Shown in pieces: positions 15,391-57,956 of a stretch of DNA of 64,000 nucleotides (position 1 is its first letter; each line of letters opens with the position of its first letter). Source of the stretch: a bacterium (GTDB lineage Bacteria; Babelota; Babeliae; Babelales; UBA12409); assembly GCA_018660415.1 (NCBI GenBank), contig JABJKG010000013.1:129874-193873 (forward strand), in the 5' to 3' direction. Below the pieces are notes generated by a model. The model searched no databases, had not been told where the DNA came from, and was given only the letters and a program-made list of their open reading frames with translations. A program made the translations under genes and the position numbers.

Positions 15391-16509
15391 ATGAAGAAGC
15401 TATTAAGTGTTGTATGTTTGATTTTCTGTGGTTCTTTGTATGGTATGCAAAAAAAAGCTATTATTTTTGGAGTTACCGGGCAGGACGGATCTTATTTAGC
15501 TGAATTGCTATTAAGCAAGGGGTATGAGGTTCATGGGGTTAAGCGCAGGTCTTCTTCCTTTAACACTTCTCGGTTAAATAGTTTGTATCAAGATTCTCAT
15601 GGTGAGAATGTTAGTTTTAAACTTCATTATGGTGATCTAACCGATTCTCTCAATATAACGAGCCTTTTACGAGAAATAGAACCAGATGAGATTTATAATC
15701 TTGGAGCTCAAAGTCATGTTCGGGTGTCATTTGATATTCCAGAGTACACCGGTAACTGTGACGGCTTAGGTACGCTTCGCATTTTAGAAGCAATTAGGTT
15801 TTTAGGGCTAGAGCAAAAAACAAAATTCTATCAAGCATCGACTAGTGAACTTTATGGATTAGTTCAAGAGATCCCTCAAAAAGAAACGACGCCTTTTTAT
15901 CCACGATCACCCTATGCTGTAGCTAAGATATATGGGTATTGGATTACCGTGAACTATCGAGAATCATATAATATGTTTGCGTGTAACGGTATTTTATTTA
16001 ATCATGAATCTCCTCGTCGTGGAGAAACTTTCGTAACCAAAAAAATCAGTATGGCTATTGCTAAAATTAAGTATGGTCTTCAGGATTGTTTATACTTAGG
16101 AAATATGGATTCCAAGCGTGATTGGGGTTATGCAGCTGATTATGTTGAAGCTATGTGGATGATGTTACAACAGGATAAGCCGCAAGATTTTGTTATAGCT
16201 ACTGGTGAAACTCACACAGTTCGGGAGTTTGTTGAAGTTGCTTGTAAAGAGGCTGGCATTGCTTTAACGTGGCAAGGATCTGGTCTTGATGAAGTAGGAA
16301 TTAATGCTTCTGGTAAAACAATAGTTAAAATTGATCCTCGTTACTATCGTCCAGCAGAAGTGGAATTTTTACTTGGAGATCCTTCAAAAGCTGAAAAAGA
16401 ACTTGGATGGAAGCCTAAGGTTTGTTTTAAAGAGTTAGTTAAGCGGATGGTTCAGTTTGATTTAGAACAGTGTTGTATGAGTAATAATGTACGTCGAAAC
16501 AAGGAATAA
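15391..16509 (+). CDS. gmd: GDP-mannose 4,6-dehydratase with an 18-aa N-terminal hydrophobic extension
   Basis: Motifs [22 protein letters not shown] and NHESPRRG. A Shine-Dalgarno-like AGGAAG lies 7 nt before the ATG at 15391. No such site precedes the internal Met at 15445. Confidence 0.93.
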
Positions 16510-16510
16510 C

Positions 16511-17503
16511 ATGAAAAAAACATATGTATTGATGATCGTCTTTTTATTTGTCACTATGGCTGAATGTGCTATGGATAAAAACGCAAGGATTTTTGTTGCT
16601 GGTCATAGAGGGTTAGTGGGCTCGGCATTGGTTAGAATCCTGGACGATCTTGGTTATCATAATTTAATATTACGGTCTCATGATGAACTTGATTTAACTG
16701 ACAAATTGGCTGTAGAAGAGTTTTTTGCGCAAGAAGAGCCGGATTATGTATTTTTAGCTGCAGCCAAGGTAGGGGGTATCGTTGGAAATAGCCGCTATCC
16801 GGCAGACTTTATATATGAAAACCTTCAAATTGAAACCAATGTGATTCATTCTTCCTATAGATTTGGAGTTAAAAAGCTCCTATTTCTAGGTTCATCTTGT
16901 ATATATCCGCGTATGTGTCCACAACCAATTAAAGAAGAGTATTTATTAAGTGACTATTTAGAGCCCACAAACGATGCCTATGCGATCGCAAAGATTGCTG
17001 GGATCAAAATGTGCCAATCGTATAATAAGCAGTATGGGACTAATTTTATAGCCTGTATGCCTACAAACCTTTATGGGCTTAATGATAACTTTGATTTAGA
17101 AATGTCGCATGTGCTTCCAGCTCTTATTGCAAAGGTTCAGAAAGCCAAGGCTAATGGCGATAAAAACTTTGTAGTTTGGGGGACAGGTCAAGTTAAACGA
17201 GAGTTTCTCTATGTTGATGATTTAGCTGAAGCATGTGTTTTTCTTATGAACAATTATGATGACAGTGATATTATTAACATTGGGACCGGTGAAGATGTAA
17301 CTATTGCTCAATTGGTGGAGGCTGTGAAAAGGGCTATAGGATATGACGGTGAAATTATTTATGATACTACCAAGCCGGATGGTACTCCTCGTAAGTTACT
17401 GGATGTAAGCAAAATAAATAATCTTGGGTGGAAGGCTAAGCATTCTTTAGCGGATGGTTTAGAGCTGACAACCAAATGGTATAAGCGGACCATTATCGGA
17501 TGA
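16511..17503 (+). CDS. fcl: GDP-L-fucose synthase (GDP-4-keto-6-deoxymannose 3,5-epimerase/4-reductase) with a 20-aa N-terminal hydrophobic extension
   Basis: Motifs RIFVAGHRGLVGSA and YAIAKIAG. AAGGAA lies 6 nt before the ATG at 16511, which is 1 nt after the gmd stop. Confidence 0.9.
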   Translation: MKKTYVLMIVFLFVTMAECAMDKNARIFVAGHRGLVGSALVRILDDLGYHNLILRSHDELDLTDKLAVEEFFAQEEPDYVFLAAAKVGGIVGNSRYPADFIYENLQIETNVIHSSYRFGVKKLLFLGSSCIYPRMCPQPIKEEYLLSDYLEPTNDAYAIAKIAGIKMCQSYNKQYGTNFIACMPTNLYGLNDNFDLEMSHVLPALIAKVQKAKANGDKNFVVWGTGQVKREFLYVDDLAEACVFLMNNYDDSDIINIGTGEDVTIAQLVEAVKRAIGYDGEIIYDTTKPDGTPRKLLDVSKINNLGWKAKHSLADGLELTTKWYKRTIIG

Positions 17504-17530
17504 TTGATCTTTTTTAAATAAAGGTTGCAT

Positions 17531-20963: not shown

Positions 20964-21761
20964 TTAATTAAGTTTGGCAATTGATAGCATTTGATCAATC
21001 ACGTGTTTGTATTGTTTATATGGACGAGAACAATGAGCATCGATATAGCGTTGGTTTCTAAGATGTGAAGCATTGAATTTCATATTATCACCACGGTCTA
21101 TTCTTGGACCTACATTATGGTTTAATTTAACGCAATCTTGTGAGTATCTTTGCCAGCGAGTTAAGCATTCATATAGCATGCGTTCATCAGTAAACCAGCC
21201 CATTCCAAGTGTGTGCCAGTGACTCATAAGAGCTCGCATATCATCAAAACTCTCTACTTGGAAAATTTCCTTAAAAGTACTTCCTAAAGCTGCATTGTAG
21301 CACATTGGAAATGCATTTGGATTAGGCCCGTATGCAGCATTGCGGTATACTATAAACTTATGATCAGGTATTTTTCGAATTGGCTTAGTAAAGTATTTTA
21401 ATTGTAGTGGAAACATATCAATATCGGACAACAGACAGAAATCTGTTGGGAATAAGGCAGGTATCAAAACTCGAATTACTTGGGCCTGGTATCCGGTATT
21501 TAATCCCTCTACTGGATCTATATAAACAACATCACCATATGTTTCATCAATTGGATTGTTTTCATCCCTTGTTCCAATAAATGCTAGAGTTGGTCGAACC
21601 GTATTGTTGGAAATTCGGCACCAAGCTTTTGATACCAGTGGCCAAAACTCTAGATATGTAGGATTATTATCTGATGCAAAAATCACACGATTTATTTGTG
21701 CAGTTTGAATATTTTGGCATGTCAAAGCAAGTGCCAAAATAAAGAAAAGTCCCTTTTTCAT
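20964..21761 (-). CDS. Putative glycosyltransferase of unassigned family with signal peptide
   Basis: 265 aa with signal MKKGLFFILALALTC. A DxD-like motif LLSDIDMFPL follows a hydrophobic strand. The call rests on context within the glycan island. Confidence 0.45.
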   Translation of the reverse strand: MKKGLFFILALALTCQNIQTAQINRVIFASDNNPTYLEFWPLVSKAWCRISNNTVRPTLAFIGTRDENNPIDETYGDVVYIDPVEGLNTGYQAQVIRVLIPALFPTDFCLLSDIDMFPLQLKYFTKPIRKIPDHKFIVYRNAAYGPNPNAFPMCYNAALGSTFKEIFQVESFDDMRALMSHWHTLGMGWFTDERMLYECLTRWQRYSQDCVKLNHNVGPRIDRGDNMKFNASHLRNQRYIDAHCSRPYKQYKHVIDQMLSIAKLN

Positions 21762-22099: not shown

Positions 22100-23509
22100 A
22101 TGCATTTTAAATATATGATGTTGATTATAGGTTTGTTAAGTACTTTTCATATTACAAAAGGCGATGGTCAAAATAGAGACACTCCCTTGTATGTTCCCGG
22201 TGAGTATCTAGAAGAGTCTCCTTTGGTGCTAGTTAATGCACAGAGATTTGATCTTATGGCGAAGTATTTGTTTGCACAGTCGTATATTATGAACTTAAAA
22301 ACAGATTGGTTTTCTTGTTTGTATGAATCACATTTAAGAGTTTGGAATGGTTGCCATGAAGAGTATCCTCCGTCTTCTATTCTCAATTTTAATTGTGCTC
22401 GAGAATATAAAGAAAAAAGAGGAATAAGAGAGTATATTGAGTCATTTAGTGCCTTGTTAGATTCTATACGGACAAAAGGATTTGATCTTTCTCAGTCAAT
22501 TATTCCTACTAATATACACAAGCAAATTAAAGATGGGGCACATCGAGTTTCAGCTTGCTTGCTATTTGATAAGCCGGTTAAATATAAGAAATTTGATGAT
22601 TCTAATTTCATAGCTGCTACAGCAGAATACTTTAAGAAAGCGGGTCTAGAAGATGGGTTTTTAGATGCTATGGCATTGCAGTATTGTAAATTGAAGTCTA
22701 ATACCTATGTTATTAATCTTTTCCCAGACGCTTTGAAGAATGAAGCTGAAGTGTATAAAATATTGTCCAAGTACGGGACAATTGTATACGAAAAAAATGC
22801 TACTTTGTTTAAAAATGGCCCATTAAATCTTATTCGCATGTTATATGAAGAGCCATTTGAAGGGTGGAACAATAACTTTGCTAAGGAAAAAAGCGAGCAT
22901 TGTTTTTTTGGAAAACATAAAAAACATCGTATGAGATTTATTTTGTTTGAGTGTGATTCTTTAGAAAAAACTACGAAATGCAAGTCTGAAATCAGAGCCT
23001 TCTTTAAGAGTTATGACGTTATCCACATCAATGATACACATGAGGAAAGTATTTTATCGGCTCAAACAGCGTTTAATAATAATAGTCTACATTTTATCAA
23101 CCATGCCTCTCCTAAGCACTTTAAAAACTTTACCGATCTTTTTGGTCGGTTTAAGCAATGGATCGCTAGAGAGGGTTATTCCCTAGATTATTTTTGTATT
23201 GATACGAGTGCGGTTTTGTCTGTTTATGGCATTCGAGAATGTGCTGATTTAGATTATTTGCATTCTGGTAGCCCAATTGATTCAGGAATTGTTGGTATTG
23301 ATGATCACGACTGTGAATTAAGATACCATGCAAGTTCAAAGGATGATATTGTTTTCAATCCAGAGAACCATTTCTACTTTAAAGGTGTAAAGTTTTGTTC
23401 TTTGAACACTATAAAAAAATTGAAACAAAAACGGAATGAAGTAAAAGATCAAAAAGATATTAAGATGATTAACGAGCTGCTAGCAAGTAAAAAAGCAGCT
23501 CGTTGTTAA
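22100..23509 (+). CDS. Hypothetical two-region protein (ParB/Srx-like DGAHR region plus minimal nucleotidyltransferase-like region) with signal-anchor
   Basis: Motifs KDGAHRVSACLL and CIDTSAVLSVYGIRECADLDYL (an hG[GS]-x(9-13)-DxD-like pattern). Confidence 0.4.
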   Translation: MHFKYMMLIIGLLSTFHITKGDGQNRDTPLYVPGEYLEESPLVLVNAQRFDLMAKYLFAQSYIMNLKTDWFSCLYESHLRVWNGCHEEYPPSSILNFNCAREYKEKRGIREYIESFSALLDSIRTKGFDLSQSIIPTNIHKQIKDGAHRVSACLLFDKPVKYKKFDDSNFIAATAEYFKKAGLEDGFLDAMALQYCKLKSNTYVINLFPDALKNEAEVYKILSKYGTIVYEKNATLFKNGPLNLIRMLYEEPFEGWNNNFAKEKSEHCFFGKHKKHRMRFILFECDSLEKTTKCKSEIRAFFKSYDVIHINDTHEESILSAQTAFNNNSLHFINHASPKHFKNFTDLFGRFKQWIAREGYSLDYFCIDTSAVLSVYGIRECADLDYLHSGSPIDSGIVGIDDHDCELRYHASSKDDIVFNPENHFYFKGVKFCSLNTIKKLKQKRNEVKDQKDIKMINELLASKKAARC

Positions 23510-23510
23510 C

Positions 23511-24890
23511 TTATGCTTTGAGTTTCTTTTTTGAATTGAAATAGTAAAAATAATAAGGTTTTTTTATTTTTATTTCTTTTTTTAACAAGCCGGAATTGCA
23601 TATTTGCATTGCCCAGGGGGTATCTTCAGCATAGGAGAGCTCAGGGAAAGCAAACTTGCATGCTATTGATTTTTTTATTGGGTTAAGGTGATTTGGCGGT
23701 CGATAATAAGCTTTTTTGTCATCACTATATTTTTTATATTTTATAGAATGAATAAATGGCTTATCAAATTTATTGTTAACAAAATAATGGCCAGTTAAGC
23801 TAACACAATCGGGATTGTTTAAAATTGCTTTGTAGATGATTTCGATATAGTCTTCAGAAATTTTGTCATCATCATCAATAAATGAAATATATTCCCCGGT
23901 ACAGTCGGCTACTAATGCATTACGCTTAGTTCCTACCGATAAATCAGTGTTATCCCTAAAGAAAACTATTTCAATTTTGTCTTCGAGGCAATTTTTTTGT
24001 ATTTGTTGTTCCAGTTGCGTTAAGAGACTACTAAATGTTTTTTTTCTTGAGTCTAGCGTAGGGATTAAGATGCTCCATTTAATTTGAGAAGTTTGCATAT
24101 AAAAATTATGGTCTCGTCTAGTCCAGAAAGTAACTTTATCTTCATCGTGGAAAGAATCATTATGGCGATAAAGTTCATCCATTTTAGTTGCATCATTACC
24201 ACCCCAAGCTGGATGTCGATGCTCTAATAGAGTTTGATGTACATAGCGTTCTTTTTGTAACAGCTTTGCAATTGCAGTAAATTCATTGTCTGAACAAAGA
24301 GACTTGTAGACGGGGTTATAAAGAAACCCAAATTGTCGGTAATATTTGTTATCCATTATTGAATAGGTAATAATTTCTTCTCCAGCGTGCCCATCATAGA
24401 AGTTTAAAACTCCGTTTCCTGTGGGGAAAAATTTTTGCATGTTCTCAGCAATAACAAGGTCAAACCCTTTCGTAACAGGATACATGTCATCACTTGCAAG
24501 AAGAATAATGTCAAAGTCATCTATATGCTTATCTACATCAGCATTGCATGCAGATATTTTCCCATTATTATTGCCAAAATAATAACTCAAGTTTGGGAAT
24601 TGTTTGAATTTATTTATACTTTTGGGGCAATTCATTGTTTTGTCATCTATATCACAAGAAATAACAAAATGAACAGGAATTTTGTGCGAAAGATGGTGAT
24701 AAAAACGTTTGAGATTTTTGAAAAATAGATCGGGACGTGATCTTGTAGGCCATTTAATCAAAAGGCGTGGTTGGGTGTTATTATGAAAACATACATCGTT
24801 AGAAGAAATTTGTTTAACAATGGGTACAATCCTATAAGGAGTGTATAATCCAATACATAAAAGAATCACAAAAATGGATTTAATTTGCAT
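23511..24890 (-). CDS. Two-domain glycosyltransferase: N-terminal unassigned domain (paralogue of 25709-26512) plus C-terminal GT2
   Basis: The N-terminal half aligns by eye with ORF 25709 (LLIK.PTR.R, ISCD..D..MN, LLASDDM.P, GVLNF.DGH, FGF.Y.P.Y). The C-terminal half has ILIPTLDSR...FIDDDD. Confidence 0.65.
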   Translation of the reverse strand: MQIKSIFVILLCIGLYTPYRIVPIVKQISSNDVCFHNNTQPRLLIKWPTRSRPDLFFKNLKRFYHHLSHKIPVHFVISCDIDDKTMNCPKSINKFKQFPNLSYYFGNNNGKISACNADVDKHIDDFDIILLASDDMYPVTKGFDLVIAENMQKFFPTGNGVLNFYDGHAGEEIITYSIMDNKYYRQFGFLYNPVYKSLCSDNEFTAIAKLLQKERYVHQTLLEHRHPAWGGNDATKMDELYRHNDSFHDEDKVTFWTRRDHNFYMQTSQIKWSILIPTLDSRKKTFSSLLTQLEQQIQKNCLEDKIEIVFFRDNTDLSVGTKRNALVADCTGEYISFIDDDDKISEDYIEIIYKAILNNPDCVSLTGHYFVNNKFDKPFIHSIKYKKYSDDKKAYYRPPNHLNPIKKSIACKFAFPELSYAEDTPWAMQICNSGLLKKEIKIKKPYYFYYFNSKKKLKA

Positions 24891-25708: not shown

Positions 25709-26512
25709 ATGGGTAGATGCAGATTGGTGGTTGGAATATTGTTTTTATTGAGTTTATCAAGTTTAACCGAGCCTTTGAATGCAGCGGAATTGCTTATAAA
25801 ATTTCCTACACGTGAACGAACCAAGAAGTTTTTTAAGTGCTTAGATCAGTATTATAAACTTCTTTCTAAAAAGCATTCATATCATTTTTTAATTTCTTGT
25901 GATGCAAATGATGTAAAGATGAATAATGCAAAAGTGAAAGAGCGTTTTAAGAAATATGACAATTTAACCGTTATTTATGGGGAGCGGGTTGGTAAGATTG
26001 GTGCATGCAATCGGGATATGGATTTGGCTCCAGATTTTGATATTGTACTGCTTGCTAGTGATGATATGTGGCCTTATACACAAGATTATGATGATATTAT
26101 TATCCAGCATATGGAAAAAGAATTTCCTGACTTTGATGGGGTTCTGAATTTTGCAGATGGTCATCCTAAAGGCTCTCATGTACTTAACACCTATCCCATT
26201 CTAGGTAAAAAATACTTTAATCGCTTTGGGTTTATATATCATCCCGCCTACCTATCCTATTTTTGTGATTTAGAATTAGCATTGGTTTCAAGGTTGTATG
26301 GTAAAGAGGCAATTGTTGATATAGAGCTGTTAACACATAACAACCCTGCTTTTACTAATGAAAAAGATGCCCTATATAATTTTAACCAGAAACTATATCA
26401 TAAAGATGAACAGATCTTTATGGAACATCTTACTAATAAGTTTGAATTGGATTTTCTTACATTAGAGCAAGTGGATTATTTAGAATTCTGTAAGTCTAAA
26501 ATGGATGAATAA
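25709..26512 (+). CDS. Stand-alone copy of the unassigned GT-like domain found in 23511-24890
   Basis: Strong AAGGAG site before the start and a signal-like LVVGILFLLSLSS. Paralogy as described for 23511-24890. Confidence 0.6.
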   Translation: MGRCRLVVGILFLLSLSSLTEPLNAAELLIKFPTRERTKKFFKCLDQYYKLLSKKHSYHFLISCDANDVKMNNAKVKERFKKYDNLTVIYGERVGKIGACNRDMDLAPDFDIVLLASDDMWPYTQDYDDIIIQHMEKEFPDFDGVLNFADGHPKGSHVLNTYPILGKKYFNRFGFIYHPAYLSYFCDLELALVSRLYGKEAIVDIELLTHNNPAFTNEKDALYNFNQKLYHKDEQIFMEHLTNKFELDFLTLEQVDYLEFCKSKMDE

Positions 26513-26533: not shown

Positions 26534-27979
26534 TTGAAAAACAAATTTTTTTATATTTTCGGAATGAGTTTGTTATTCCTCACTGCCTTAACCACCAATC
26601 TTTGTGCTGATGAAAAAGGCTTAGAAAAGCATTTAACTATCATTATTCCAAGTTATAACAATGCACAATGGTATGAAAAGAATTTGCGGTCGGTGTTCAT
26701 GCAAAAGTACTCTAATTATTCGGTTATATACTGTAATGACTGTTCTACTGATGATACTTTCAATAAAGTACAAAAATACATTTGCAGTGTTGGTATGGAG
26801 GATAAAGTAACATTAATTTCTAATCCGGTTAGGCGAGGTAAGGCTGCTAATTTATGGCTAACTCTTCATAATCGAAACTCTGAATATATTATTTCCGATG
26901 AAAGTATTGTTGTTGTTTTAGATGGTGATGATTGGTATCCACACGATGGGATTTTTTCCTATATTAATAAATTATATACGGAGAATGATATTTGGTTTTC
27001 TTATGGCGGATTTCAAGAGTATCCTTCTCAAAAAAAATGCTTTAATAAGCCAATTCCACAAAAAATATTAGATACTAATAGTTTTCGTAAAGCAGGGGCT
27101 TTTGGTTCTCAACAGCGCACATTTTATGCATGGCTATATAGGCAAATAAAATTAGAGGATTGTATTTGTGAAGGATATTTTATTCCTGTCGTTAGTGATA
27201 TAGCTAAAGTTATTCCAATGTTAGAGATGTGTTCTCCACGCTTCAAATTGGTTGATGATTACATTTATGTTTATAATCGATTGAACACTATTAATGATGA
27301 TAAGATTGATCATAAACTACAATGGAAAATTGATCATTATTTTAGGTTGAAGCCAGCATATCCAAAATTGCATGAGCCCAAGTTTTTATCTCTTGATAGT
27401 TATGCTCCAATAGATTGTATTGTGTCAGTGCAGGAGCATCAATTGAATAAAATCGATCCTCAAAGTCTATATAGTCAATTAGAACAGCAGTTTTCTGATA
27501 TTGGAAGAGTAATTGTTCTAGCAGACCAAAAAAGTCGCTACTTAGTTGTAGAGCATGATGGTTCTAATCATTTTAAAACAACAAGGGGTGTTGGTTTAAA
27601 CTCTTTATTAAAGGGGGTTTCGAGCAAATATGTTTGTTTTCTTAACTTAGAAAAGCTGGCTTGTTTTAACAGTACCAATTTATCTGAAGTTAATCATTCA
27701 TTGGAAAAAACTCATGCATTTTGTTATGAAATTTTTCCAGCTAAGCAAAAGCATTATGAACAGCTTGGTAGCGGATTATGTGGCTATCAAACCAGTTGTT
27801 CTCTGTCTTATATAAAAAAGAGAGGCGGGTTTGATGGAATGGTTTATAAAACTGAGGAGCTAGTTTCTTTCCTGGGTGGACTAGAAGAAAAAACTTTTTC
27901 TTTTTTTAAGAAAAAGTGGGATGAGTACTGTTGTTCTCGTCAAAACAGGCATAAAATTTGTCTTCTGCATAAAAATTAA
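26534..27979 (+). CDS. GT2 glycosyltransferase with a ~220-aa C-terminal extension of unknown function
   Basis: TTG start after AAGGAA. Motifs IIIPSYNNAQWYEKNLRSV..Q.YSNY..IYCNDCSTDDT, LDGDDW and RTFYAWLYRQI. Paralogous to 29997-30758 and to the C-terminus of 31771-33918. Confidence 0.75.
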   Translation: MKNKFFYIFGMSLLFLTALTTNLCADEKGLEKHLTIIIPSYNNAQWYEKNLRSVFMQKYSNYSVIYCNDCSTDDTFNKVQKYICSVGMEDKVTLISNPVRRGKAANLWLTLHNRNSEYIISDESIVVVLDGDDWYPHDGIFSYINKLYTENDIWFSYGGFQEYPSQKKCFNKPIPQKILDTNSFRKAGAFGSQQRTFYAWLYRQIKLEDCICEGYFIPVVSDIAKVIPMLEMCSPRFKLVDDYIYVYNRLNTINDDKIDHKLQWKIDHYFRLKPAYPKLHEPKFLSLDSYAPIDCIVSVQEHQLNKIDPQSLYSQLEQQFSDIGRVIVLADQKSRYLVVEHDGSNHFKTTRGVGLNSLLKGVSSKYVCFLNLEKLACFNSTNLSEVNHSLEKTHAFCYEIFPAKQKHYEQLGSGLCGYQTSCSLSYIKKRGGFDGMVYKTEELVSFLGGLEEKTFSFFKKKWDEYCCSRQNRHKICLLHKN

Positions 27980-27999
27980 TTTTAAAAAAGGAAAATATA

Positions 28000-29019
28000 G
28001 TGAAAAAACACTATGGTTTATATTTGATTCTAACTTTTATTGGCTTGATAGGCAACATGGATGCCAAAAGGATTTATATTGTTCCACCGGGAGGATATGA
28101 AGATGGTAAGTTGTTTAAGCTTTCCAATGATTGGCTTAATCGGGACATGGTTAATCAGATTTGGTGTGATTTGAAAGCGGAGCTTAATCGAAGAGGGCAT
28201 ACAATTCAAACAGTGCGTATGAATGCCAATATGAATAATTGTGATGCTCTTATTGTGTGTGGTATTTTCCCTCAATATTTTAATGTTTATCAACGATTGA
28301 CTAATGCTGGAAAAAGAGTTATTTCTCTTTTGTTTGAACCAAAAACGGTTGAGCCTCAGAGCTATAATAGGAACTATTACAATCATTTTACAAAAGTAAT
28401 AACAATGTATGATGATGATGTAAGAGAGGTCGGTAACTGTATGAAATTACATTATGCTCAGCCTCATTTATCTATGCGTGAATCAGTATCGTTCTCTAAA
28501 AAACGCTTATGTACTATGATTAACTCCAATAAGAGTTCTAATTATAAAAACTCTCTGTATGGTGAGCGTCAAAATGCAGTAAAAGAGCTAAGTAAGCATC
28601 CCCAAGACTTTACATTCTATGGTCAAGGTTGGAATGTAAAGCGATGGAAGTGTTATGGTGGTGGTGTTAAGAGTAAGTCGGATACTCTTGTGAATTTTAA
28701 ATTCTGTATTTGCTATGACAATACGAATGATGCCAATGGATATATCACTGAGAAAATTTTTGACAGCATGCAAGCAGGGTGTGTTCCTGTTTACCTAGGA
28801 GCTCCTAATATAACCGACTATGTTCCGGCAGAATGCTTGATTGATAAGAGAGATTTTAGCTCATATGAAGATCTCTACAACTTTATGAAAAACATGACCC
28901 AGGAAGAGTACCAAAAATATATAGATAATATTCAAGCTTTTTATGCTTCCGAGATGGCAGAAAGGTTTTCTGGTGCCCATTTTGCAAAAACTGTCTGTGA
29001 AGCTCTAGCTGTCGAATAA
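28000..29019 (+). CDS. GT10-type alpha-1,3/4-fucosyltransferase-like protein with N-terminal signal-anchor
   Basis: Variant of the alpha-1,3-FucT motif, FCICYDNTNDANGYITEKIFD, followed by GCVPVYLGAPN. GTG start. Confidence 0.7.
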   Translation: MKKHYGLYLILTFIGLIGNMDAKRIYIVPPGGYEDGKLFKLSNDWLNRDMVNQIWCDLKAELNRRGHTIQTVRMNANMNNCDALIVCGIFPQYFNVYQRLTNAGKRVISLLFEPKTVEPQSYNRNYYNHFTKVITMYDDDVREVGNCMKLHYAQPHLSMRESVSFSKKRLCTMINSNKSSNYKNSLYGERQNAVKELSKHPQDFTFYGQGWNVKRWKCYGGGVKSKSDTLVNFKFCICYDNTNDANGYITEKIFDSMQAGCVPVYLGAPNITDYVPAECLIDKRDFSSYEDLYNFMKNMTQEEYQKYIDNIQAFYASEMAERFSGAHFAKTVCEALAVE

Positions 29020-29024
29020 ATAAC

Positions 29025-29933
29025 CTATTTATAACGTATAAATCTCATGGCTCCACCTTGATAGTTGGGGCCTTGAGTTCGTGATACATAAATAACGCTA
29101 TCTTGGTTGAGCTGACTTTCTAGGTGATGAATATGTACAACTTTTTTTTCATTTTTTAGTTGCAGAACAAAATAGCCTCGCTCAGTGAAAAGACGATAGC
29201 CGTTTATATGGGCTAGAATACTAAATAAAGGCTGATCGTGTCGAGCTTCTCCTTTACCTTTAGAAGAGCTTCCATCATCAACAAATAGAGTGACATCTTT
29301 AGCAAATTCATACATCGGCATTACGTACTCGTCGTAGACCTTTCGTGAAACCCCTTGAAGGCCAGCAGTTACAGATGGAGTATCCTTACAGGTTAATAGC
29401 CCTCTATATTGCGCATACAGCTGGTTCATGATTTGTTTACGCACTCGTTTGGTAGAGCGATCTATAATGTTGTGCTCAGGGCCAGGGGCTAATAAAAAAT
29501 AGCCGTTTGCTTCTATATACTCAAAAATATCATTCAATGATTTGAGAACAGTAACTCCAGCATCTAAATAAAATACATACGGGAATTTATCTAGGGATTG
29601 CTTAATGACAACTGGTTTCCATGCATATGATCCAGGAACTCTTTTTCCGCTTCGCGTAGTAACTATGGGTTTAATAATATCAGGATGGACATGATCAACC
29701 TCATGAACCGTTACTTTTGCAATTTGTTTGAGTGAGTTGATTTGTTTTGCAGACATTCCCAGGTTAAATACAGCAATTTCTACAAGCTCATCAAAGTTAG
29801 TTTTATGGATACTGCCAATTAAATTTAAGAGGTTGGGATAATAAGTAGCATCAGACGCGGTACAATAATATTGAGGAATGCTATAGCTGAGTTGGGTGAT
29901 GAGTAATAGTGATAAAAGGGAAAACTTTTTCAT
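29025..29933 (-). CDS. Unassigned GT-A-like protein, paralogue of 19576-20472
   Basis: Shares the motifs listed for 19576-20472 and has signal MKKFSLLSLLLITQLSYS. Confidence 0.6.
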   Translation of the reverse strand: MKKFSLLSLLLITQLSYSIPQYYCTASDATYYPNLLNLIGSIHKTNFDELVEIAVFNLGMSAKQINSLKQIAKVTVHEVDHVHPDIIKPIVTTRSGKRVPGSYAWKPVVIKQSLDKFPYVFYLDAGVTVLKSLNDIFEYIEANGYFLLAPGPEHNIIDRSTKRVRKQIMNQLYAQYRGLLTCKDTPSVTAGLQGVSRKVYDEYVMPMYEFAKDVTLFVDDGSSSKGKGEARHDQPLFSILAHINGYRLFTERGYFVLQLKNEKKVVHIHHLESQLNQDSVIYVSRTQGPNYQGGAMRFIRYK

Positions 29934-29996: not shown

Positions 29997-30758
29997 TCAA
30001 AGCTCATGGTTGGTGATTTTTGGATATTGAGGCTTGCTGCGTATGACCTGAGCAATATCTAATTGTTCTTGATAATTGTTTTTAAAGTCATTGAGTGGGG
30101 TTTGATTGTTGTAGATATATAAGACTTCTCGAATAAATCGTATGTGTCCTCGTGCCATTTCGACCATTGGTAACATTTCAGCTACATCGCCAGCAATTTG
30201 AAAAAACTCACCCTGATGTTGAAGATCGTTTTTAGGAATTTTTTTAAAAAGCCATGCATAATAAGTTCTGAGTGCGCTTGTGTAATAACAGGTTGACGCA
30301 CGAAAATCAAAATCTTGGGGTAGTTTTTTACAGTGGCCTTTTTTATTACTAGGGAACCGTTTATATTGTCCGTACGTTACCCAGATATCATACTTAGAAT
30401 AGACTTTATTGATTTTCTTTAAGACATTATCATGAGCAAACCAATCATCACCATCTAGGATGAGAATTATTTCATTATTTTCACACAAGTGAGAGCCTTT
30501 ATAGCGGTTAGCGGTAGCGCCCTGCCGAGTTTCATTTTTAATGAGGGTTACACGCTGTTGTTGGTGTTTTTCATAAATGTACTGTTCTACTAGGTGAGCT
30601 GTGTTATCTGAAGAGTGATCATCAAGATAAATAATACGATAGTTGGTGTAGTTTTGGTTGAAGATGGAATCAAGGTTGTGTTTATACCACTGAGCATTGT
30701 TATAGGAAGGGACTACAACAACGAGTTTTTTTTCAGGGATAGGTTTAAAAAAGAACAT
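29997..30758 (-). CDS. GT2 glycosyltransferase (the only enzyme of the island without an obvious hydrophobic N-terminus)
   Basis: Motifs VVVPSYNNAQWYKHNLDSIFNQNYTNYRIIYLDDHSSDNT, LDGDDW and RTYYAWLFKKI. Confidence 0.8.
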   Translation of the reverse strand: MFFFKPIPEKKLVVVVPSYNNAQWYKHNLDSIFNQNYTNYRIIYLDDHSSDNTAHLVEQYIYEKHQQQRVTLIKNETRQGATANRYKGSHLCENNEIILILDGDDWFAHDNVLKKINKVYSKYDIWVTYGQYKRFPSNKKGHCKKLPQDFDFRASTCYYTSALRTYYAWLFKKIPKNDLQHQGEFFQIAGDVAEMLPMVEMARGHIRFIREVLYIYNNQTPLNDFKNNYQEQLDIAQVIRSKPQYPKITNHEL

Positions 30759-30760
30759 GT

Positions 30761-31774
30761 TTATTCCTTTAAGCAGGATAAGTAAGTTTCTATCATAGCT
30801 TCTTGGGAAAAAGGACGAGCTTGGGGTCCAGCCAAGAAGTTTTTTATATTGGTTAGGTATTGCTCATGTTTTTTTGCTGATATATTTTTTATAAAACTAT
30901 AGAGCTCTTGATATGAGTTAAAGTTTCTCATATTGATAAAACAGTTTTGAGGAATATATTTATCTATATTTGGTGCACCGAGATATATAGGGACACAGCC
31001 TCCAAAAAAGCAGTCAAAGATTTTTTCAGTGATATAGCCAGCAGGGCCATCCATGTTTTCAAAGCAAATGTAAAAGCGATAATTGCTCATGCATTTATAC
31101 TTATTATCAACGGAACCTTTATAGCTTTTCTGGCGATTGCCAGCACATGAACGGCCGAATAAATCAAGTTCATACGTGTTTAAATTGTCAAAGAAGTCTA
31201 TTATTTCTAGGCGTTTATTGAAGAGTGCCTGTGGGTGGTTGGAGTGGCGATTGCTACTAATCATGGTACAGAGCTTTTTTTTATTAAAAGGGCGTTGATC
31301 GTGCATGAATGGGTTGGTTGGATTTAAATTGTATTGCATCCAATGAAATTTATGCACCTTTTTATTATCAATTAGTTCGTCGTTCCAGGTGAATATATTA
31401 TCAACAATATCCCATCGACGTTGTTGGTATTGATGGGGGCTGGTAGCTGGTGGTTCAAATAGAAACGCTGCCGTTTTAGCATTGCGTAATGGCCTTAGCT
31501 TTCCATGGGTTAATGACATGGGCAAGTTGAAGAAAATAACACAATCGGCGTCATAGGAATCCTGTAGTGATTGTAGTGAGTACTTGGCGGCTTGAGCACT
31601 ATAACCCTTTTTATGTAGAGCTTTTTTAAATTTTTTCCAAAAACCATTATCGTGTTCATCTTGTTGAAAAAAGTCACCATAGTCTTGTGCAAGATCATAC
31701 AAAAGCCGCAGCTTTTTTTGTTGAGGCTGTATGAGCGTTGGGAGTAAAAAGGCGTATAATAATAGTTTTTTCAT
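30761..31774 (-). CDS. GT10-type alpha-1,3/4-fucosyltransferase-like protein with N-terminal signal-anchor
   Basis: Canonical FYICFENMDGPAGYITEKIFD followed by GCVPIYLGAPN. The preferred start forms an ATGA stop/start overlap with the upstream gene. An alternative ATG is at 31798. Confidence 0.8.
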   Translation of the reverse strand: MKKLLLYAFLLPTLIQPQQKKLRLLYDLAQDYGDFFQQDEHDNGFWKKFKKALHKKGYSAQAAKYSLQSLQDSYDADCVIFFNLPMSLTHGKLRPLRNAKTAAFLFEPPATSPHQYQQRRWDIVDNIFTWNDELIDNKKVHKFHWMQYNLNPTNPFMHDQRPFNKKKLCTMISSNRHSNHPQALFNKRLEIIDFFDNLNTYELDLFGRSCAGNRQKSYKGSVDNKYKCMSNYRFYICFENMDGPAGYITEKIFDCFFGGCVPIYLGAPNIDKYIPQNCFINMRNFNSYQELYSFIKNISAKKHEQYLTNIKNFLAGPQARPFSQEAMIETYLSCLKE

Positions 31775-33918
31775 AACTTTTCTGCGGTTTGGTAGCACGG
31801 AGTAGTGAGTACTTTATGATGAACTTTTGCTTCTACGGTTTTATCAATGTTTTTAAAATCGTTGAGTGGGGAATCGATATTGCGCATTAAAAGTGGTTTC
31901 GAAATATAGGAGATATTAGTTTCAGCCATTTCTAAAATAGGATAGAAGGTTGCAGCATCATGGAACACTGGGATGAAGGCATTATCGATCATGAGATCTT
32001 CTTTTCTTATCCGTTTGAAGAGCCACGCATAATAGGTGCGTAGTCCTGAATAATGCCAAACCCTTTCTCTGAATGCTTTATTTTTTACTACCCATAATGG
32101 TGTTTGTTTACACCAGTTTTGCATATTGAGCTTTTTTGCAAGCTCGGGAGGGTTGTTTATATAGTTTCCATATACGGCCCAAGAACCTTGTTGATACTCT
32201 TTGTTAAGTCGGGTGAGAACATAGGGATCGATTAAGTAGTCATCACCATCAAGCTCTACGATGATAGAGTCATCAGGGCATGAATGAATGGCGCTATAAA
32301 GGTTGCTGAGTTTTTTATTTCGGTGGCTATTGCAAACAAGGGTGACCAGATTTTTTTTGTCCTTTTGTTCTAAATATTCTTGAACGAATTGCCCCGTATT
32401 ATCTGGTGATTGATCATCAACGTATATGACATTGAAATTAGGATATTGTTGTTCAAGTACCGAATCTAAGTTCTTAACATAATATTTACTATTATTGTAG
32501 GAGGTTATTAGTACGGTAAAGTGGTGATCGTGTTCCTGGGCATATTTTCTATTCGAGAGTAATTGTTGCACATGATACATAAGGTTAGGAATTGTTGAAA
32601 GCCATCCATGCCTGATCCTTTTTATAAACATTTGGCTCAGGTGATTTTGTTGGTGAATAAGGATTCCATAAGTCATTACGAAAAACAATGCATTAGAGAA
32701 AAGAGTGGCAATTACGCAACCATAAATATTAAAACGTGGTATTAAAAGGATATTAAGGCCGATATTGGTGGATGCTGCAGAAATGTTAGTGACGAGAATG
32801 GTCCAGGTTTTTTTCTTAAAAACCAGATAACAGGAGCTAAAATAGGTTCCCATAAAAAGAACATTCCCGAGTAGCATTGGTAAGACATACTGGAGAGATT
32901 GGTGGTACTTTGTAGGTAAGAACCATGGTCCTACTTTAAGAGCAAATAATGAGGCAATGGTTACGCTGACTCCCATGAATGCCATAGCAAGCCACATGGT
33001 TTTGAGGTTGCGATTTTCTATTGTTTTAAGGGGTTCTTTTTTTTCAGCGTATTGTTTGAGCATATATGGAACGTAGGAACCGCTAAGAGGTAAAAGTACG
33101 GTCATTTGAAACATCATGGTTGATTGATCAGCAAATGCGTAAATACCTACATTATGCATATTGGTCAGATCTGCCAACACCCAACGATCGCCAAAAGAAA
33201 GGATCCAATTGAATAAAATATTAGGGATAAAGGGAAGTCCTAGCCATAATAAGTTTCTTGCATCTTTAAACTGAGGAATTTTTATATATTCTTTTTTTTT
33301 CAAACCAATTTGTTTTTTGTAATAAAAGAAGGCTATGGCACAAATGGTAGAGATTCCAAGAAAATTACTGGTGATAACACCAAGGATTCTGAAGTTGTAA
33401 TAAAAGACAAGAATAGCCGTGGAAGCGATCGATACTAAGGCAGCAGTAAGTTGGATAATGGTGAGCTTGCGGGCGTTACTTTGATAGCGCAATACCTGAA
33501 GATATAACTCGGAAAAAAACTGCACAAAACAATAGATCATGGCCAGTATCATGATGGTTTTTGATGCAAGTCCCAAAAATATAAATTGATTTAGCCAATG
33601 CTGGTTGATGATTAATAAAATAAATATGGGTATAGCAATTACAAGATACGTTTGGATGATGCTATGAAACACTTGTTTGCGCCCAGCCGAGTCATGATGG
33701 AAGTACTCGAGTCCAAATACTTGTCGGAGTCCAAGATTCAAAAAAAGAGGGAATAGCGCACAAAAATTATTTATGAGAGAAAGAAGCCCAAATTCTGATG
33801 TGGTTAGGATGGTTACCGTTACCAGAGTTGTGCCCCATGTAATTCCACGTAGTACAATGGCGCCACACGAGTATGTTAAAAAATTCTTGATGAGAGTTGT
33901 ATTGAAGTGTTTTATCAT
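31771..33918 (-). CDS. Fusion protein: Wzx/MOP-type polysaccharide flippase (about 440 aa, multi-TM) plus C-terminal GT2 domain
   Basis: The N-terminus has many TM helices and Polysacc_synt-like features (LIKNF..Y..G......TTSEFGLLSL). The C-terminus has VLITSYNNSKYYVKNLDSVLEQQYPNFNVIYVDDQSPDNT, LDGDDY and RTYYAWLFKRI. Confidence 0.65.
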   Translation of the reverse strand: MIKHFNTTLIKNFLTYSCGAIVLRGITWGTTLVTVTILTTSEFGLLSLINNFCALFPLFLNLGLRQVFGLEYFHHDSAGRKQVFHSIIQTYLVIAIPIFILLIINQHWLNQFIFLGLASKTIMILAMIYCFVQFFSELYLQVLRYQSNARKLTIIQLTAALVSIASTAILVFYYNFRILGVITSNFLGISTICAIAFFYYKKQIGLKKKEYIKIPQFKDARNLLWLGLPFIPNILFNWILSFGDRWVLADLTNMHNVGIYAFADQSTMMFQMTVLLPLSGSYVPYMLKQYAEKKEPLKTIENRNLKTMWLAMAFMGVSVTIASLFALKVGPWFLPTKYHQSLQYVLPMLLGNVLFMGTYFSSCYLVFKKKTWTILVTNISAASTNIGLNILLIPRFNIYGCVIATLFSNALFFVMTYGILIHQQNHLSQMFIKRIRHGWLSTIPNLMYHVQQLLSNRKYAQEHDHHFTVLITSYNNSKYYVKNLDSVLEQQYPNFNVIYVDDQSPDNTGQFVQEYLEQKDKKNLVTLVCNSHRNKKLSNLYSAIHSCPDDSIIVELDGDDYLIDPYVLTRLNKEYQQGSWAVYGNYINNPPELAKKLNMQNWCKQTPLWVVKNKAFRERVWHYSGLRTYYAWLFKRIRKEDLMIDNAFIPVFHDAATFYPILEMAETNISYISKPLLMRNIDSPLNDFKNIDKTVEAKVHHKVLTTPCYQTAEKL

Positions 33919-56440: not shown

Positions 56441-56448
56441 GAGTGACG

Positions 56449-57925: not shown

Positions 57926-57956
57926 GATTTTGTTTTGTTTAAAATGGAGAAGAAAA

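What the first reader, a model, noticed from the sequence alone, without database searches (positions are those of the whole stretch)
28000..29019. Two diverged GT10 alpha-1,3-fucosyltransferase-like genes with eukaryote-style N-terminal anchors
ORF 30761-31774 carries the canonical alpha-1,3-FucT motif FxIxFEN-x6-YITEK, seen as FYICFENMDGPAGYITEKIFD. ORF 28000-29019 carries a variant, FCICYDNTNDANGYITEKIFD. Both follow it with GCVP(V/I)YLGAPN. The characterised bacterial GT10 enzymes (Helicobacter FutA/FutB) lack an N-terminal anchor and use C-terminal heptad repeats and amphipathic helices. Animal FUTs are N-terminally anchored type II proteins, and that is the layout seen here. The FEN to YDN change in one copy may mean altered acceptor specificity or loss of activity.
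Basis: partly seen in the sequence, partly recalled or inferred. Interest (0 to 1): 0.6.

Follow-up and report, generated by a model that had tools for sequence, protein, structure and literature searches.

The report
Exported bacterial fucosyltransferase pair
Two genuine fucose-transferring enzymes in a protist-parasitic bacterium (Dependentiae) carry bacterial export signals rather than animal-style membrane anchors, so fucose is probably added to glycans outside the bacterial cytoplasm using host-derived sugar nucleotides.

Summary
ORFs 28000-29019(+) and 30761-31774(-) are true GT10 fucosyltransferase-family genes: Pfam 63 and 69 bits, and the best fold match is the H. pylori alpha1,3-FucT. 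They are 34% identical paralogs.

- **Leaders.** The N-terminal segments are short n-h-c leaders with 16-17 uncharged residues. There is no stem, and the first beta-strand starts at residue 23. This is Sec signal-peptide anatomy, not an animal type II anchor.
- **Not GT10-specific.** About 44% of this 1.08-Mb Babeliales genome's ORFs carry such leaders, as do about 15 of 17 island genes, including Gmd and Fcl.
- **Phylogeny.** Both genes nest in a bacterial clade (Dependentiae, Chlamydiota, Verrucomicrobiota). One branch (SH-aLRT 95) separates 93 leader-bearing members from 17 leaderless free-living ones. Eukaryotic and viral GT10s are far more distant.
- **The "YDN" variant.** The family consensus is YEN, so only E-to-D is unusual. 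It is conserved in orthologs and the catalytic residues are intact.

The genome lacks ManC, so GDP-mannose must come from the host. The best reading is an exported fucosylation pathway working outside the cytoplasm. Export, activity and acceptor are inferred, not shown.

The parts
28000..29019 (+). GT10 copy A (339 aa), the 'YDN' variant
   Evidence: PF00852 63.1 bits. AF2 pLDDT 95 with a GT-B fold; top PDB match is H. pylori FucT 2nzx, E 1.5e-11. Orthologs P0002 (84%) and P0003 (61%, TM6 bacterium).
28000..28065 (+). Leader of copy A (residues 1-22, MKKHYGLYLILTFIGLIGNMDA)
   Evidence: n-h-c architecture, N-flank charge +3 against C-flank -1. Helix 5-18 is followed directly by beta1 at 23-28. 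Leader identity to orthologs is 59% and 28%, against 86% and 63% for the mature part.
27988..27992 (+). Shine-Dalgarno AAGGA, 7 nt before copy A's GTG start
   Evidence: Read directly from the sequence. It supports translation of the leader.
30761..31774 (-). GT10 copy B (337 aa), the 'FEN' form
   Evidence: PF00852 68.6 bits. 34% identical to A. Orthologs P0121 (87%) and P0122 (70%, Candidatus Babeliales). The ATG overlaps the upstream stop codon.
31718..31774 (-). Leader of copy B (MKKLLLYAFLLPTLIQPQQ)
   Evidence: The h-region is short (12 aa) and contains a Pro. There is no obvious small-residue cleavage site in B itself, but ortholog P0122 has ...SNSAA|QKK.
29025..29933 (-). GT8-like enzyme with leader, between the two GT10 genes; paralog of 19576-20472
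   Evidence: Weak PF01501 hit, E 6e-4. Leader MKKFSLLSLLLITQLSYS.
29997..30758 (-). GT2 without a leader, immediately downstream of copy B
   Evidence: PF00535 78 bits. Its ATG lies 2 nt after B's stop, with an AGGA inside B's 3' end.
31771..33918 (-). Wzx-type flippase fused to a C-terminal GT2 domain, immediately upstream of copy B
   Evidence: PF01943 (residues 10-287) plus PF00535 (residues 468-626).
26534..27979 (+). GT2 with leader, immediately upstream of copy A
   Evidence: PF00535 59 bits. Leader MKNKFFYIFGMSLLFLTALTTNLCA.
15391..16509 (+). GDP-mannose 4,6-dehydratase (Gmd) with a 20-aa leader; supplies the donor pathway
   Evidence: TIGR01472 593 bits; the match starts at residue 21. 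Gmd genes next to leader-clade GT10s in L060, L048, L033 and L018 also carry leaders.
16511..17503 (+). GDP-L-fucose synthase (Fcl) with a roughly 23-aa leader
   Evidence: NF047922 478 bits (just under the 500-bit cut-off); the match starts at residue 24.

Best explanation
A and B are two old paralogs of the GT10 (alpha1,3/4-fucosyltransferase) family in an uncultured Babeliales (Dependentiae) parasite of protists.

Each is made with a Sec-type N-terminal leader oriented N-in, which places the whole GT-B catalytic domain outside the cytoplasm. That means the periplasm or cell surface, either released by signal peptidase I or held by the uncleaved leader.

The donor, GDP-fucose, is made in the same compartment by leader-bearing Gmd and Fcl. 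Their substrate is host GDP-mannose, because the bacterium has no ManC.

The two GT10s then fucosylate a glycan that the neighbouring enzymes build. The neighbours are a leaderless GT2 and a Wzx-GT2 fusion on the cytoplasmic side, and leader-bearing GT2, GT8-like and methyltransferase enzymes outside. The acceptor is most likely a glycan of the bacterium's own envelope.

**Shown here:** family membership, intact catalytic residues, leader anatomy and orientation bias, phylogenetic placement, and absence of ManC.

**Inferred:** actual export and cleavage, enzymatic activity and linkage, the host origin of the nucleotide sugar, and the acceptor.
For: **GT10 identity.**
- Pfam scores, PDB sequence hits to H. 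pylori FucT, FUT9 and plant FucTs, and AF2 pLDDT 95 with H. pylori FucT as the top fold match.
- Invariant E113 lies in the family's conserved WEPP block (FEP in A and B), which aligns with the ESP segment of FUT9. From my own knowledge, that ESP Glu is FUT9's catalytic base.
- N241, E251 and K252 correspond to H. pylori FucT N240, E249 and K250.

**Leader is translated.** There is a Shine-Dalgarno before A's start and an ATGA overlap at B's start.

**Leader is an add-on before beta1.** It is absent from the Paenibacillus, Effusibacillus, Pseudomonas, Sulfuricurvum, Brevinematales, Bacteriovoracaceae and Micrarchaeota homologs.

**One branch separates the two states.** It splits 93 leader-bearing from 17 leaderless GT10s, SH-aLRT 95, one state change.

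**Orientation.** The N-flank is more positive than the C-flank in 223 of 239 sequences, tied in 16, and reversed in none.

**Cleavage-site signal.** The last uncharged residue before the first charged residue after the hydrophobic core is Ala/Ser/Gly in 52% against a 19% background.

**Leader evolves faster than the mature domain** while staying hydrophobic.

**Neighbourhoods.** 57 of 74 neighbours of leader-clade GT10s in Dependentiae have leaders, against 2 of 72 around leaderless GT10s. Adjacent Gmd genes gain leaders in four independent loci.

**Genome content.** Signal peptidase I and three secretins are present. The only NTP_transferase is GalU, in a 98%-complete genome.

**Phylum trait.** 44% of CDS have signal peptides in the cultured relative C. 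destructans (PMC6561590), matching my rough 44% here.

**Precedent.** In Chlamydia, the glycogen synthase GlgA acts in the inclusion lumen on host UDP-glucose (PMC4829429).
Against: - No dedicated signal-peptide predictor was available, and nothing experimental shows export or cleavage.
- B's leader has no obvious small-residue cleavage site. A's would be the unusual M-D-A|K.
- 56% of clade members have Lys or Arg as the first charged residue after the leader, which is not ideal for Sec substrates.
- No Leloir fucosyltransferase is known to work in a bacterial periplasm.
- GDP-mannose and NADPH would have to reach that compartment, and no route was identified.
- A leaderless GT2 and leaderless WecB and UDP-ManNAc dehydrogenase sit in the same region, so part of the pathway is cytoplasmic.
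- No WaaL/Wzy-type ligase was found, so the fate of a flipped glycan is unclear.
- In A, Gmd and Fcl an internal Met lies at the end of the leader (A's M20 precedes the last two leader residues), so leaderless cytoplasmic isoforms cannot be excluded.
Confidence: 0.55

Rival explanations
1. The two GT10s are true secreted effectors. After Sec export they cross the outer membrane, through one of the three secretin systems or in outer-membrane vesicles. They then fucosylate host proteins or glycans in the host cytosol or vacuole, where GDP-mannose and NADPH are abundant.
For: There are three secretins. Dependentiae are reported to secrete many effectors and to shed vesicles (PMC6561590). The lack of ManC makes the pathway host-dependent. 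No ligase for a bacterial glycan was found.
Against: The GT10 genes are embedded in a cluster with a Wzx flippase and many GTs, the typical layout for a bacterial surface polysaccharide. A WecA/MraY-family initiator is present. The same clade occurs in Verrucomicrobiota MAGs, which are not all intracellular.
Confidence: 0.2
2. The hydrophobic N-terminus merely tethers the enzymes to the cytoplasmic face of the inner membrane, or is skipped through an internal start. Fucosylation would then happen in the cytoplasm as in ordinary bacteria.
For: All characterised bacterial Leloir GTs of polysaccharide pathways act in the cytoplasm. An internal Met lies at the end of the leader in A (M20), Gmd (M19) and Fcl (M22). 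A leaderless GT2 and the Wzx-fused GT2 suggest cytoplasmic steps.
Against: Charge bias favours N-in in 223 of 239 sequences and N-out in none. The h-regions are too short for a stable transmembrane helix in A and B. The Shine-Dalgarno sits before the leader start, not the internal Met. B has no internal Met. Gmd leaders in L060 and L048 are followed by long linkers. Without ManC a cytoplasmic Gmd would still need imported GDP-mannose.
Confidence: 0.12
3. One reading: the genes are eukaryote-like type II membrane fucosyltransferases acquired laterally from a eukaryotic host or a giant virus.
For: They have an N-terminal hydrophobic segment and no C-terminal heptad repeats. The organism lives inside eukaryotes. 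GT10 genes exist on giant-virus contigs.
Against: The nearest relatives are bacterial at E 1e-50 to 1e-138. FUT9, plant FucTs and viral hits are much weaker, at E 1e-7 to 3e-32. There is no stem region. The same leader type is found on 44% of the proteome. Both copies nest inside a bacterial clade.
Confidence: 0.03
4. Copy A is a catalytically altered or dead paralog because of the FEN-to-YDN change.
For: E240 is at least 90% conserved in the family, and Asp occurs only in A and its orthologs.
Against: E to D is a conservative change. The Asn, Glu and Lys aligned with H. pylori FucT N240, E249 and K250, and the conserved Glu113, are all intact. The variant is maintained at 84% and 61% identity, with the whole protein conserved and no decay. 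The same-genus genome G073 keeps both copies.
Confidence: 0.05

Closest known systems
Helicobacter pylori alpha1,3/4-fucosyltransferases FutA/FutB (GT10; PDB 2nzw/2nzx/2nzy, 5zoi)
   Same: Same Pfam family and GT-B fold, and the best structural match. The donor-binding core N...Y-x-T-E-K is shared. GDP-fucose is the presumed donor.
   Different: About 15% identity over the fold. There are no C-terminal heptad repeats or amphipathic helices. An N-terminal Sec-type leader is present instead. The H. pylori enzymes act in the cytoplasm on the Lewis-antigen O-chain.
Short (~335 aa) leaderless GT10s of free-living bacteria (Paenibacillus, Effusibacillus, Pseudomonas, Sulfuricurvum)
   Same: 34-40% identical over the full length, with the same domain boundaries and invariant residues.
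   Different: They start directly at beta1 with no leader. Their neighbours (2 of 72) and their adjacent Gmd genes are also leaderless. One tree branch separates them from the leader clade.
Animal and plant GT10 fucosyltransferases (human FUT9, PDB 8d0o; plant FucTA/FUT13, PDB 9s6a and 7yro)
   Same: Same family. The conserved Glu and the donor motif align. The catalytic domain faces away from the cytosol, so the layouts are topologically analogous.
   Different: The animal and plant enzymes are type II proteins with a cytosolic tail, a transmembrane helix of about 20 aa and a stem. Here the leader is short, there is no stem, and there is no phylogenetic affinity.
Chlamydia trachomatis glycogen enzymes acting in the inclusion lumen on host UDP-glucose (PMC4829429)
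   Same: A bacterial Leloir-type glycosyltransferase works outside the bacterium on a host-supplied nucleotide sugar.
   Different: Those enzymes have no signal peptide and use type 3 secretion. The pathway (glycogen) and the enzyme families are different.
Sec-dependent secretome of Dependentiae (Chromulinavorax destructans, PMC6561590)
   Same: 44% of CDS have signal peptides, matching this genome. The leader on the GT10s is part of that phylum-wide trait.
   Different: The paper does not mention glycosyltransferases or fucose (0 occurrences). Export of nucleotide-sugar and GT enzymes is not described there.

Membership tests
GT10 (Pfam PF00852, alpha1,3/4-fucosyltransferase family) | Significant match to the family HMM above the curated cut-off | tested here: met
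   63.1 bits (A) and 68.6 bits (B) against a cut-off of 23.9; confirmed on genomic DNA.
GT10 (Pfam PF00852, alpha1,3/4-fucosyltransferase family) | GT-B two-Rossmann fold resembling solved GT10 structures | tested here: met
   AF2 model of A has pLDDT 95 and pTM 0.89. The top Foldseek hits are H. pylori FucT 2nzx and 2nzw, E about 1e-11. B was not modelled.
GT10 (Pfam PF00852, alpha1,3/4-fucosyltransferase family) | Donor-binding residues equivalent to H. pylori FucT N240, E249 and K250 (motif FxxxFEN-x-YxTEK) | tested here: met
   N241, E251 and K252 are invariant in alignment A1 and align to H. pylori FucT N240, E249 and K250. A has D in place of E at position 240. That these H. pylori residues are essential is from my own knowledge of the published structure.
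GT10 (Pfam PF00852, alpha1,3/4-fucosyltransferase family) | Catalytic-base Glu in the N-terminal domain (the 'ESP' Glu of FUT9) | tested here: met
   E113 is invariant in alignment A1. It lies in the family's WEPP block (FEP in A and B), which aligns with the NLESP segment of FUT9 in the profile search. The role of that Glu is from my own knowledge.
GT10 (Pfam PF00852, alpha1,3/4-fucosyltransferase family) | GDP-fucose-dependent alpha1,3/4 transfer to a GlcNAc or Glc acceptor | not testable with these tools
   This needs a recombinant enzyme assay. GDP-fucose supply genes (gmd, fcl) are in the same island.
Helicobacter-type FutA/FutB subfamily | C-terminal heptad repeats followed by amphipathic membrane-binding helices | tested here: not met
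   The proteins end at residues 339 and 337, right after the last catalytic-domain helix (325-336). There is no extra C-terminal region.
Eukaryotic type II membrane fucosyltransferase layout | Cytosolic tail plus a transmembrane helix of about 18-22 residues | tested here: not met
   The uncharged runs are 17 aa (A) and 16 aa (B), including polar ends. The best 19-residue hydropathy is 1.19 and 0.64, below 1.6. The clade median is 16 aa, although a subset (for example Anoxychlamydiales) has stretches of about 20 aa.
Eukaryotic type II membrane fucosyltransferase layout | Stem region between the membrane segment and the catalytic domain | tested here: not met
   The helix at 5-18 is followed by beta1 at 23-28. 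In the alignment the leader abuts the conserved xIYIxPP strand.
Eukaryotic type II membrane fucosyltransferase layout | Phylogenetic affinity to eukaryotic GT10s | tested here: not met
   The best relatives are bacterial. Both copies lie inside the Dependentiae/Chlamydiota/Verrucomicrobiota clade. FUT9 scores only E 1.6e-7 (A) and 1.2e-11 (B).
Sec-type (SPase I) signal peptide | Tripartite n-h-c organisation with a positive n-region and N-in charge bias | tested here: met
   MKK followed by a hydrophobic core. N-flank +3 against C-flank -1 (A) and 0 (B). The clade gives 223 of 239 N-in and none N-out.
Sec-type (SPase I) signal peptide | Small residues at -1/-3 of a cleavage site | tested here: inconclusive
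   At clade level, the last uncharged residue before the first charged residue after the core (a proxy for -1) is Ala/Ser/Gly in 52% against a 19% background. A offers M-D-A|K and B has no clear site. No SignalP-type predictor was available.
Sec-type (SPase I) signal peptide | Export and processing machinery present in the genome | tested here: met
   Signal peptidase I (PF10502, 120 bits) and three secretins are present. SecYEG and SecA were not searched.
Sec-type (SPase I) signal peptide | Demonstrated translocation and cleavage | not testable with these tools
   This needs reporter fusions or N-terminal proteomics.

The most novel reading that the evidence does not exclude
A whole GDP-fucose-dependent Leloir pathway operates outside the bacterial cytoplasm, fed by host GDP-mannose. 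It consists of Gmd, Fcl, two GT10s and about ten further GTs and methyltransferases. The layout is a Golgi-like division of labour: early steps are cytoplasmic, a Wzx flippase moves the intermediate across, and late steps happen in the extracytoplasmic compartment. The export signal on GT10 may have been acquired only once, and the exported form is now distributed across Dependentiae, Chlamydiota and Verrucomicrobiota. This would be a bacterial glycosylation topology that has not been described.
Probability: 0.4. Interest if true: 0.8.

Novelty: new variant of a known kind. Interest (0 to 1): 0.5.

Why it matters
Bacterial Leloir glycosyltransferases and nucleotide-sugar enzymes are textbook cytoplasmic proteins, because their substrates are cytoplasmic. 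A coherent clade of GT10 enzymes with export signals, next to exported Gmd and Fcl and in genomes that cannot make GDP-mannose, suggests something different. Host-dependent bacteria may run fucosylation in a compartment that is chemically continuous with the host.

If confirmed, three things follow.
- It changes where bacterial glycan assembly can be expected to happen.
- It offers a route to fucosylated (possibly host-mimicking) surfaces in Dependentiae and environmental Chlamydiae.
- It provides compact (~315 aa mature), repeat-free GT10 enzymes, with a natural E-to-D variant in the donor motif, for glycoengineering.

The specific 'animal-like anchor' idea is ordinary. It dissolves into a phylum-wide signal-peptide habit.

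Tried and rejected
1. **First tree, with partial FUT9 and H. pylori FucT segments as outgroups.** Copy B was pulled next to the long, partial H. pylori row. I treat this as long-branch attraction. The tree was rebuilt without those rows and with B's orthologs.
2. **Strict leader heuristic.** It mislabelled about 10 leader-bearing proteins as 'none'. These were corrected by inspection and a relaxed rule. Six ambiguous or truncated rows were left uncoded.
3. **Hydropathy-based TM count of the Wzx-GT2 fusion.** It found only 9 segments and is unreliable, so I did not use it to place the fused GT2 domain.
4. **Literature searches.** Searches combining Dependentiae, signal peptide and glycosyltransferase; GT10 and Chlamydia; and periplasmic fucosyltransferases found nothing relevant. 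This shows absence from that library only.
6. **Giant-virus origin.** Only distant partial matches were found.
7. **Arg190.** I could not verify that R190 corresponds to H. pylori FucT Arg195. The sequence alignments start downstream of it, and the FUT9 alignment does not place an Arg there.
8. **Not used.** The large representative-protein search and a second structure prediction (copy B) were not run, because the question was already answered.
Full report
**1. Observation**

Both ORFs are real and sit at the stated coordinates.
- Copy A (28000-29019, +, 339 aa) starts at a GTG. A good Shine-Dalgarno (AAGGA, 27988-27992) lies 7 nt upstream.
- Copy B is best read from the ATG at 31774 (337 aa, MKKLLL...). 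This ATG overlaps the stop codon of the upstream Wzx-GT2 gene as ATGA, which is typical of translational coupling.
- The quoted motifs are present verbatim.
- Pfam PF00852 (Glyco_transf_10) scores 63.1 and 68.6 bits against a cut-off of 23.9.
- A and B are 34% identical over 262 residues.
- They are the only GT10 genes in the 1.08-Mb, 98%-complete genome.

**2. Organism and context**

The window is a compact bacterial chromosome segment carrying alaS, pth, efp, nusB, glyA, rpsA, uvrB and leuS.

The closest named homologs of A and B come from candidate division TM6, Dependentiae and Babeliales. GT10 occurs in 34 of 151 sampled genomes of the phylum (27 of 96 genera). A same-genus genome keeps both copies about 2.3 kb apart in divergent orientation, as here.

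The two genes lie in a glycan island spanning about 15.4-34.9 kb of the window. The island contains:
- Gmd (TIGR01472, 593 bits) and Fcl (NF047922, 478 bits).
- At least six GT2 domains, two GT8-like paralogs, an FkbM methyltransferase and a Wzx flippase fused to a GT2 domain.

**3. GT10 membership and catalytic integrity**

- An AF2 model of A built on a 27-sequence alignment is very confident (pLDDT 95, pTM 0.89).
- Its best PDB matches are the H. pylori alpha1,3-FucT structures, E about 1e-11.
- In the family alignment E113, R190, N241, E251 and K252 are invariant.
- N241, E251 and K252 align with H. pylori FucT N240, E249 and K250. E113 lies in the family's WEPP block (FEP in A and B), which aligns with the ESP segment of human FUT9. 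The catalytic importance of these reference residues is from my own knowledge of the published structures.
- Neither protein has any C-terminal extension, so the Helicobacter heptad-repeat and amphipathic-helix region is absent.

**4. The 'FEN to YDN' change**

Among about 330 family members the tripeptide is YEN in 277, FEN in 36 and YDN in 5. Those 5 entries are copy A (counted three times, under three ids) and its two orthologs, at 84% and 61% identity.

The Phe-to-Tyr difference is therefore just the family norm. Only E240D is special. It is a conservative change kept across substantial divergence in an otherwise well-conserved protein. This points to a maintained, possibly specificity-tuning variant. 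It does not point to loss of function.

**5. What the N-terminal segments are**

Several lines argue for Sec-type leaders and against animal-type anchors.
- **No stem.** The model shows one helix (5-18) running straight into beta1 (23-28).
- **Short hydrophobic run.** The uncharged runs are 17 aa (A) and 16 aa (B). The best 19-residue hydropathy is 1.19 and 0.64, under the 1.6 rule of thumb for a transmembrane helix. The clade median is 16 aa.
- **Charge bias.** The N-flank is more positive than the C-flank in 223 of 239 sequences, tied in 16 and reversed in none. This predicts that the catalytic domain ends up outside the cytoplasm.
- **Cleavage-site signal.** The last uncharged residue before the first charged residue after the core is Ala/Ser/Gly in 52% (Ala 25%), against a 19% background (Ala 5%). 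This is a proxy for signal-peptidase I sites.
- **Fast sequence divergence.** Leaders are 28-80% identical between orthologs, against 63-87% for the mature domains, yet they remain hydrophobic.
- **Machinery.** The genome has signal peptidase I and three secretins.

There are caveats. B itself lacks an obvious cleavage site. A subset of the clade (for example the Anoxychlamydiales proteins) has hydrophobic stretches of about 20 aa that may be uncleaved anchors. No dedicated predictor was available.

**6. The leader is not a GT10 peculiarity**

By a loose heuristic, 44% of all ORFs of 100 aa or more in this genome begin with such a leader. The published value for the cultured Dependentiae Chromulinavorax destructans is also 44% (PMC6561590).

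In the island, 15 of 17 genes have a leader, including Gmd and Fcl. Their family-model matches begin only at residues 21 and 24.

**7. Phylogeny**

- The top 80 hits in named genomes are mostly Chlamydiota, Dependentiae/Babeliales and Verrucomicrobiota MAGs. A minority come from free-living lineages: Paenibacillus, Effusibacillus, Sulfuricurvum, Brevinematales, Bacteriovoracaceae and Micrarchaeota.
- The tree was built on the catalytic domain only, with leader columns removed. One branch (SH-aLRT 95) separates 93 leader-bearing from 17 leaderless sequences, so the trait needs a single change. An earlier tree with outgroups gave the same count, with support of 84.
- A sits firmly with P0002, P0003 and other Dependentiae (97-100). 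B sits with its own Babeliales orthologs (100) on the leader side of the split.
- Eukaryotic GT10s (E 1e-7 to 1e-11 by single sequence) and giant-virus contig hits (E 3e-32 or weaker, partial) are far more distant than the bacterial relatives (1e-50 to 1e-138).
- The root was not determined, so gain and loss of the leader cannot be told apart.

**8. Replicated context evidence**

| GT10 group | Non-polytopic neighbours within 6 kb with leaders |
|---|---|
| Dependentiae (leader clade) | 57 of 74 |
| Chlamydiota (leader clade) | 51 of 178 |
| Verrucomicrobiota (leader clade) | 16 of 43 |
| Leaderless clade | 2 of 72 |

In the same call, Gmd genes adjacent to leader-clade GT10s carry leader extensions in four separate loci (L018, L033, L048, L060). 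Two of these have long linkers and no Met at the canonical start. Gmd genes adjacent to leaderless GT10s start at the canonical KVALITG.

**9. Donor supply**

The only NTP_transferase-family gene in the genome is GalU (TIGR01099, 318 bits). No ManC was found. GDP-mannose for Gmd therefore has to come from the host.

WecB and the UDP-ManNAc dehydrogenase (10040-12458) are leaderless. The pathway thus seems split between a cytoplasmic UDP-sugar branch and an exported GDP-fucose branch.

The genome has two MraY/WecA-family genes, no Bac_transf gene and no Wzy_C/WaaL gene.

**10. Mechanism proposed**

A and B are exported (N-in leader, Sec pathway) to the periplasm or cell surface. There they use GDP-fucose made locally by exported Gmd and Fcl from host GDP-mannose. 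They fucosylate a glycan assembled by the island enzymes.

The acceptor is probably a lipid-linked or envelope glycan. Leaderless GT2s would start it in the cytoplasm and the Wzx-GT2 fusion would flip it across. A host-directed effector role is the main alternative.

A precedent for a bacterial Leloir enzyme using a host nucleotide sugar outside the bacterium is chlamydial GlgA in the inclusion lumen. That case uses type 3 secretion and no signal peptide (PMC4829429).

Export, cleavage, activity, linkage, acceptor and the route of nucleotide sugars are all inferred.

**11. Verdict**

The 'eukaryote-style anchor, lateral origin, possible loss of activity' reading is mostly wrong.

What remains interesting is that these GT10s belong to a previously undescribed (in the searchable literature) leader-bearing clade. 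Together with co-exported GDP-fucose synthesis, this clade implies extracytoplasmic fucosylation in host-associated bacteria.

Earlier notes of this scan had already flagged the island and the Gmd/Fcl leaders. This report adds:
- the single-branch phylogenetic split between leader-bearing and leaderless GT10s;
- the neighbourhood statistics;
- the orientation and cleavage-site statistics;
- the motif census;
- the ManC gap.

Noticed in passing
window 26534-27979, 29997-30758, 31771-33918; loci L001, L011, L068: Three paralogous GT2 domains share the motif (P/T)SYNN(A/S)x(W/Y)Y and occur in three formats: with a leader, without a leader, and fused to the C-terminus of a Wzx flippase. In Chlamydiota and unclassified MAGs the same GT2 type is fused N-terminally to a leader-clade GT10, as leader-GT2-GT10 proteins of 600-1135 aa.
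   Followed up: partly
window 15391-17503: Gmd and Fcl carry leaders of about 20 aa, and a Met sits exactly where the canonical enzyme would start. Copy A has a similar Met (M20) two residues before the end of its leader. This raises the possibility of dual exported and cytoplasmic isoforms from alternative starts.
   Followed up: partly
genome contig C8:14425-15174 (outside the window): The only NTP_transferase-family gene in the 98%-complete genome is GalU. No ManC, GlmU or RmlA homolog matched PF00483, which implies heavy reliance on host nucleotide sugars.
   Followed up: partly
window 19576-20472 and 29025-29933: Two GT8-like paralogs share a conserved SxPQYYCT segment right after the leader. 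The Pfam support is only weak (E 0.055 and 6e-4), so this may be an undescribed GT-A family.
   Followed up: no
window 17525-18406, 20964-21761, 22100-23509, 25709-26512: Four leader-bearing island proteins have no Pfam or NCBIfam match. 17525-18406 contains HVRTGDGYD, which is reminiscent of the GT11/GT23 fucosyltransferase HxRRxD motif. 25709-26512 is a paralog of the N-terminal half of the GT2 at 23511-24890.
   Followed up: no
window 54497-56440 and 56410-57804 (also 57930-58826): Tandem leader-bearing, Glu/Arg/Gln-rich coiled-coil proteins share a conserved C-terminal module (...VAPTQSTW(Q/E)(R/H)WWSG(G/S)YDK...GRMAQLALWGSR(V/I)K...). They may be secreted effectors or surface proteins.
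   Followed up: no
window 44023-44670 and 44756-46306: A leader-bearing, stand-alone M41 (FtsH-type) peptidase-like domain with an HEAAH motif sits next to a shorter FtsH-like AAA+ protease that has an N-terminal hydrophobic segment. The C. destructans paper lists secreted M41 peptidases.
   Followed up: no
window 8162-8845: A leader-bearing ankyrin-repeat protein, a typical Dependentiae effector candidate.
   Followed up: no
window 12555-14720: A 721-aa leaderless fusion of a Zn-dependent alcohol-dehydrogenase-like domain with a Gfo/Idh/MocA-type oxidoreductase domain, directly after wecB and the UDP-ManNAc dehydrogenase. It may be a nucleotide-sugar modifying enzyme.
   Followed up: no
whole window: GC skew is positive in 30 of 32 2-kb bins, whatever the gene orientation, and the cumulative skew rises almost throughout. 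The window therefore probably lies within one replichore.
   Followed up: no
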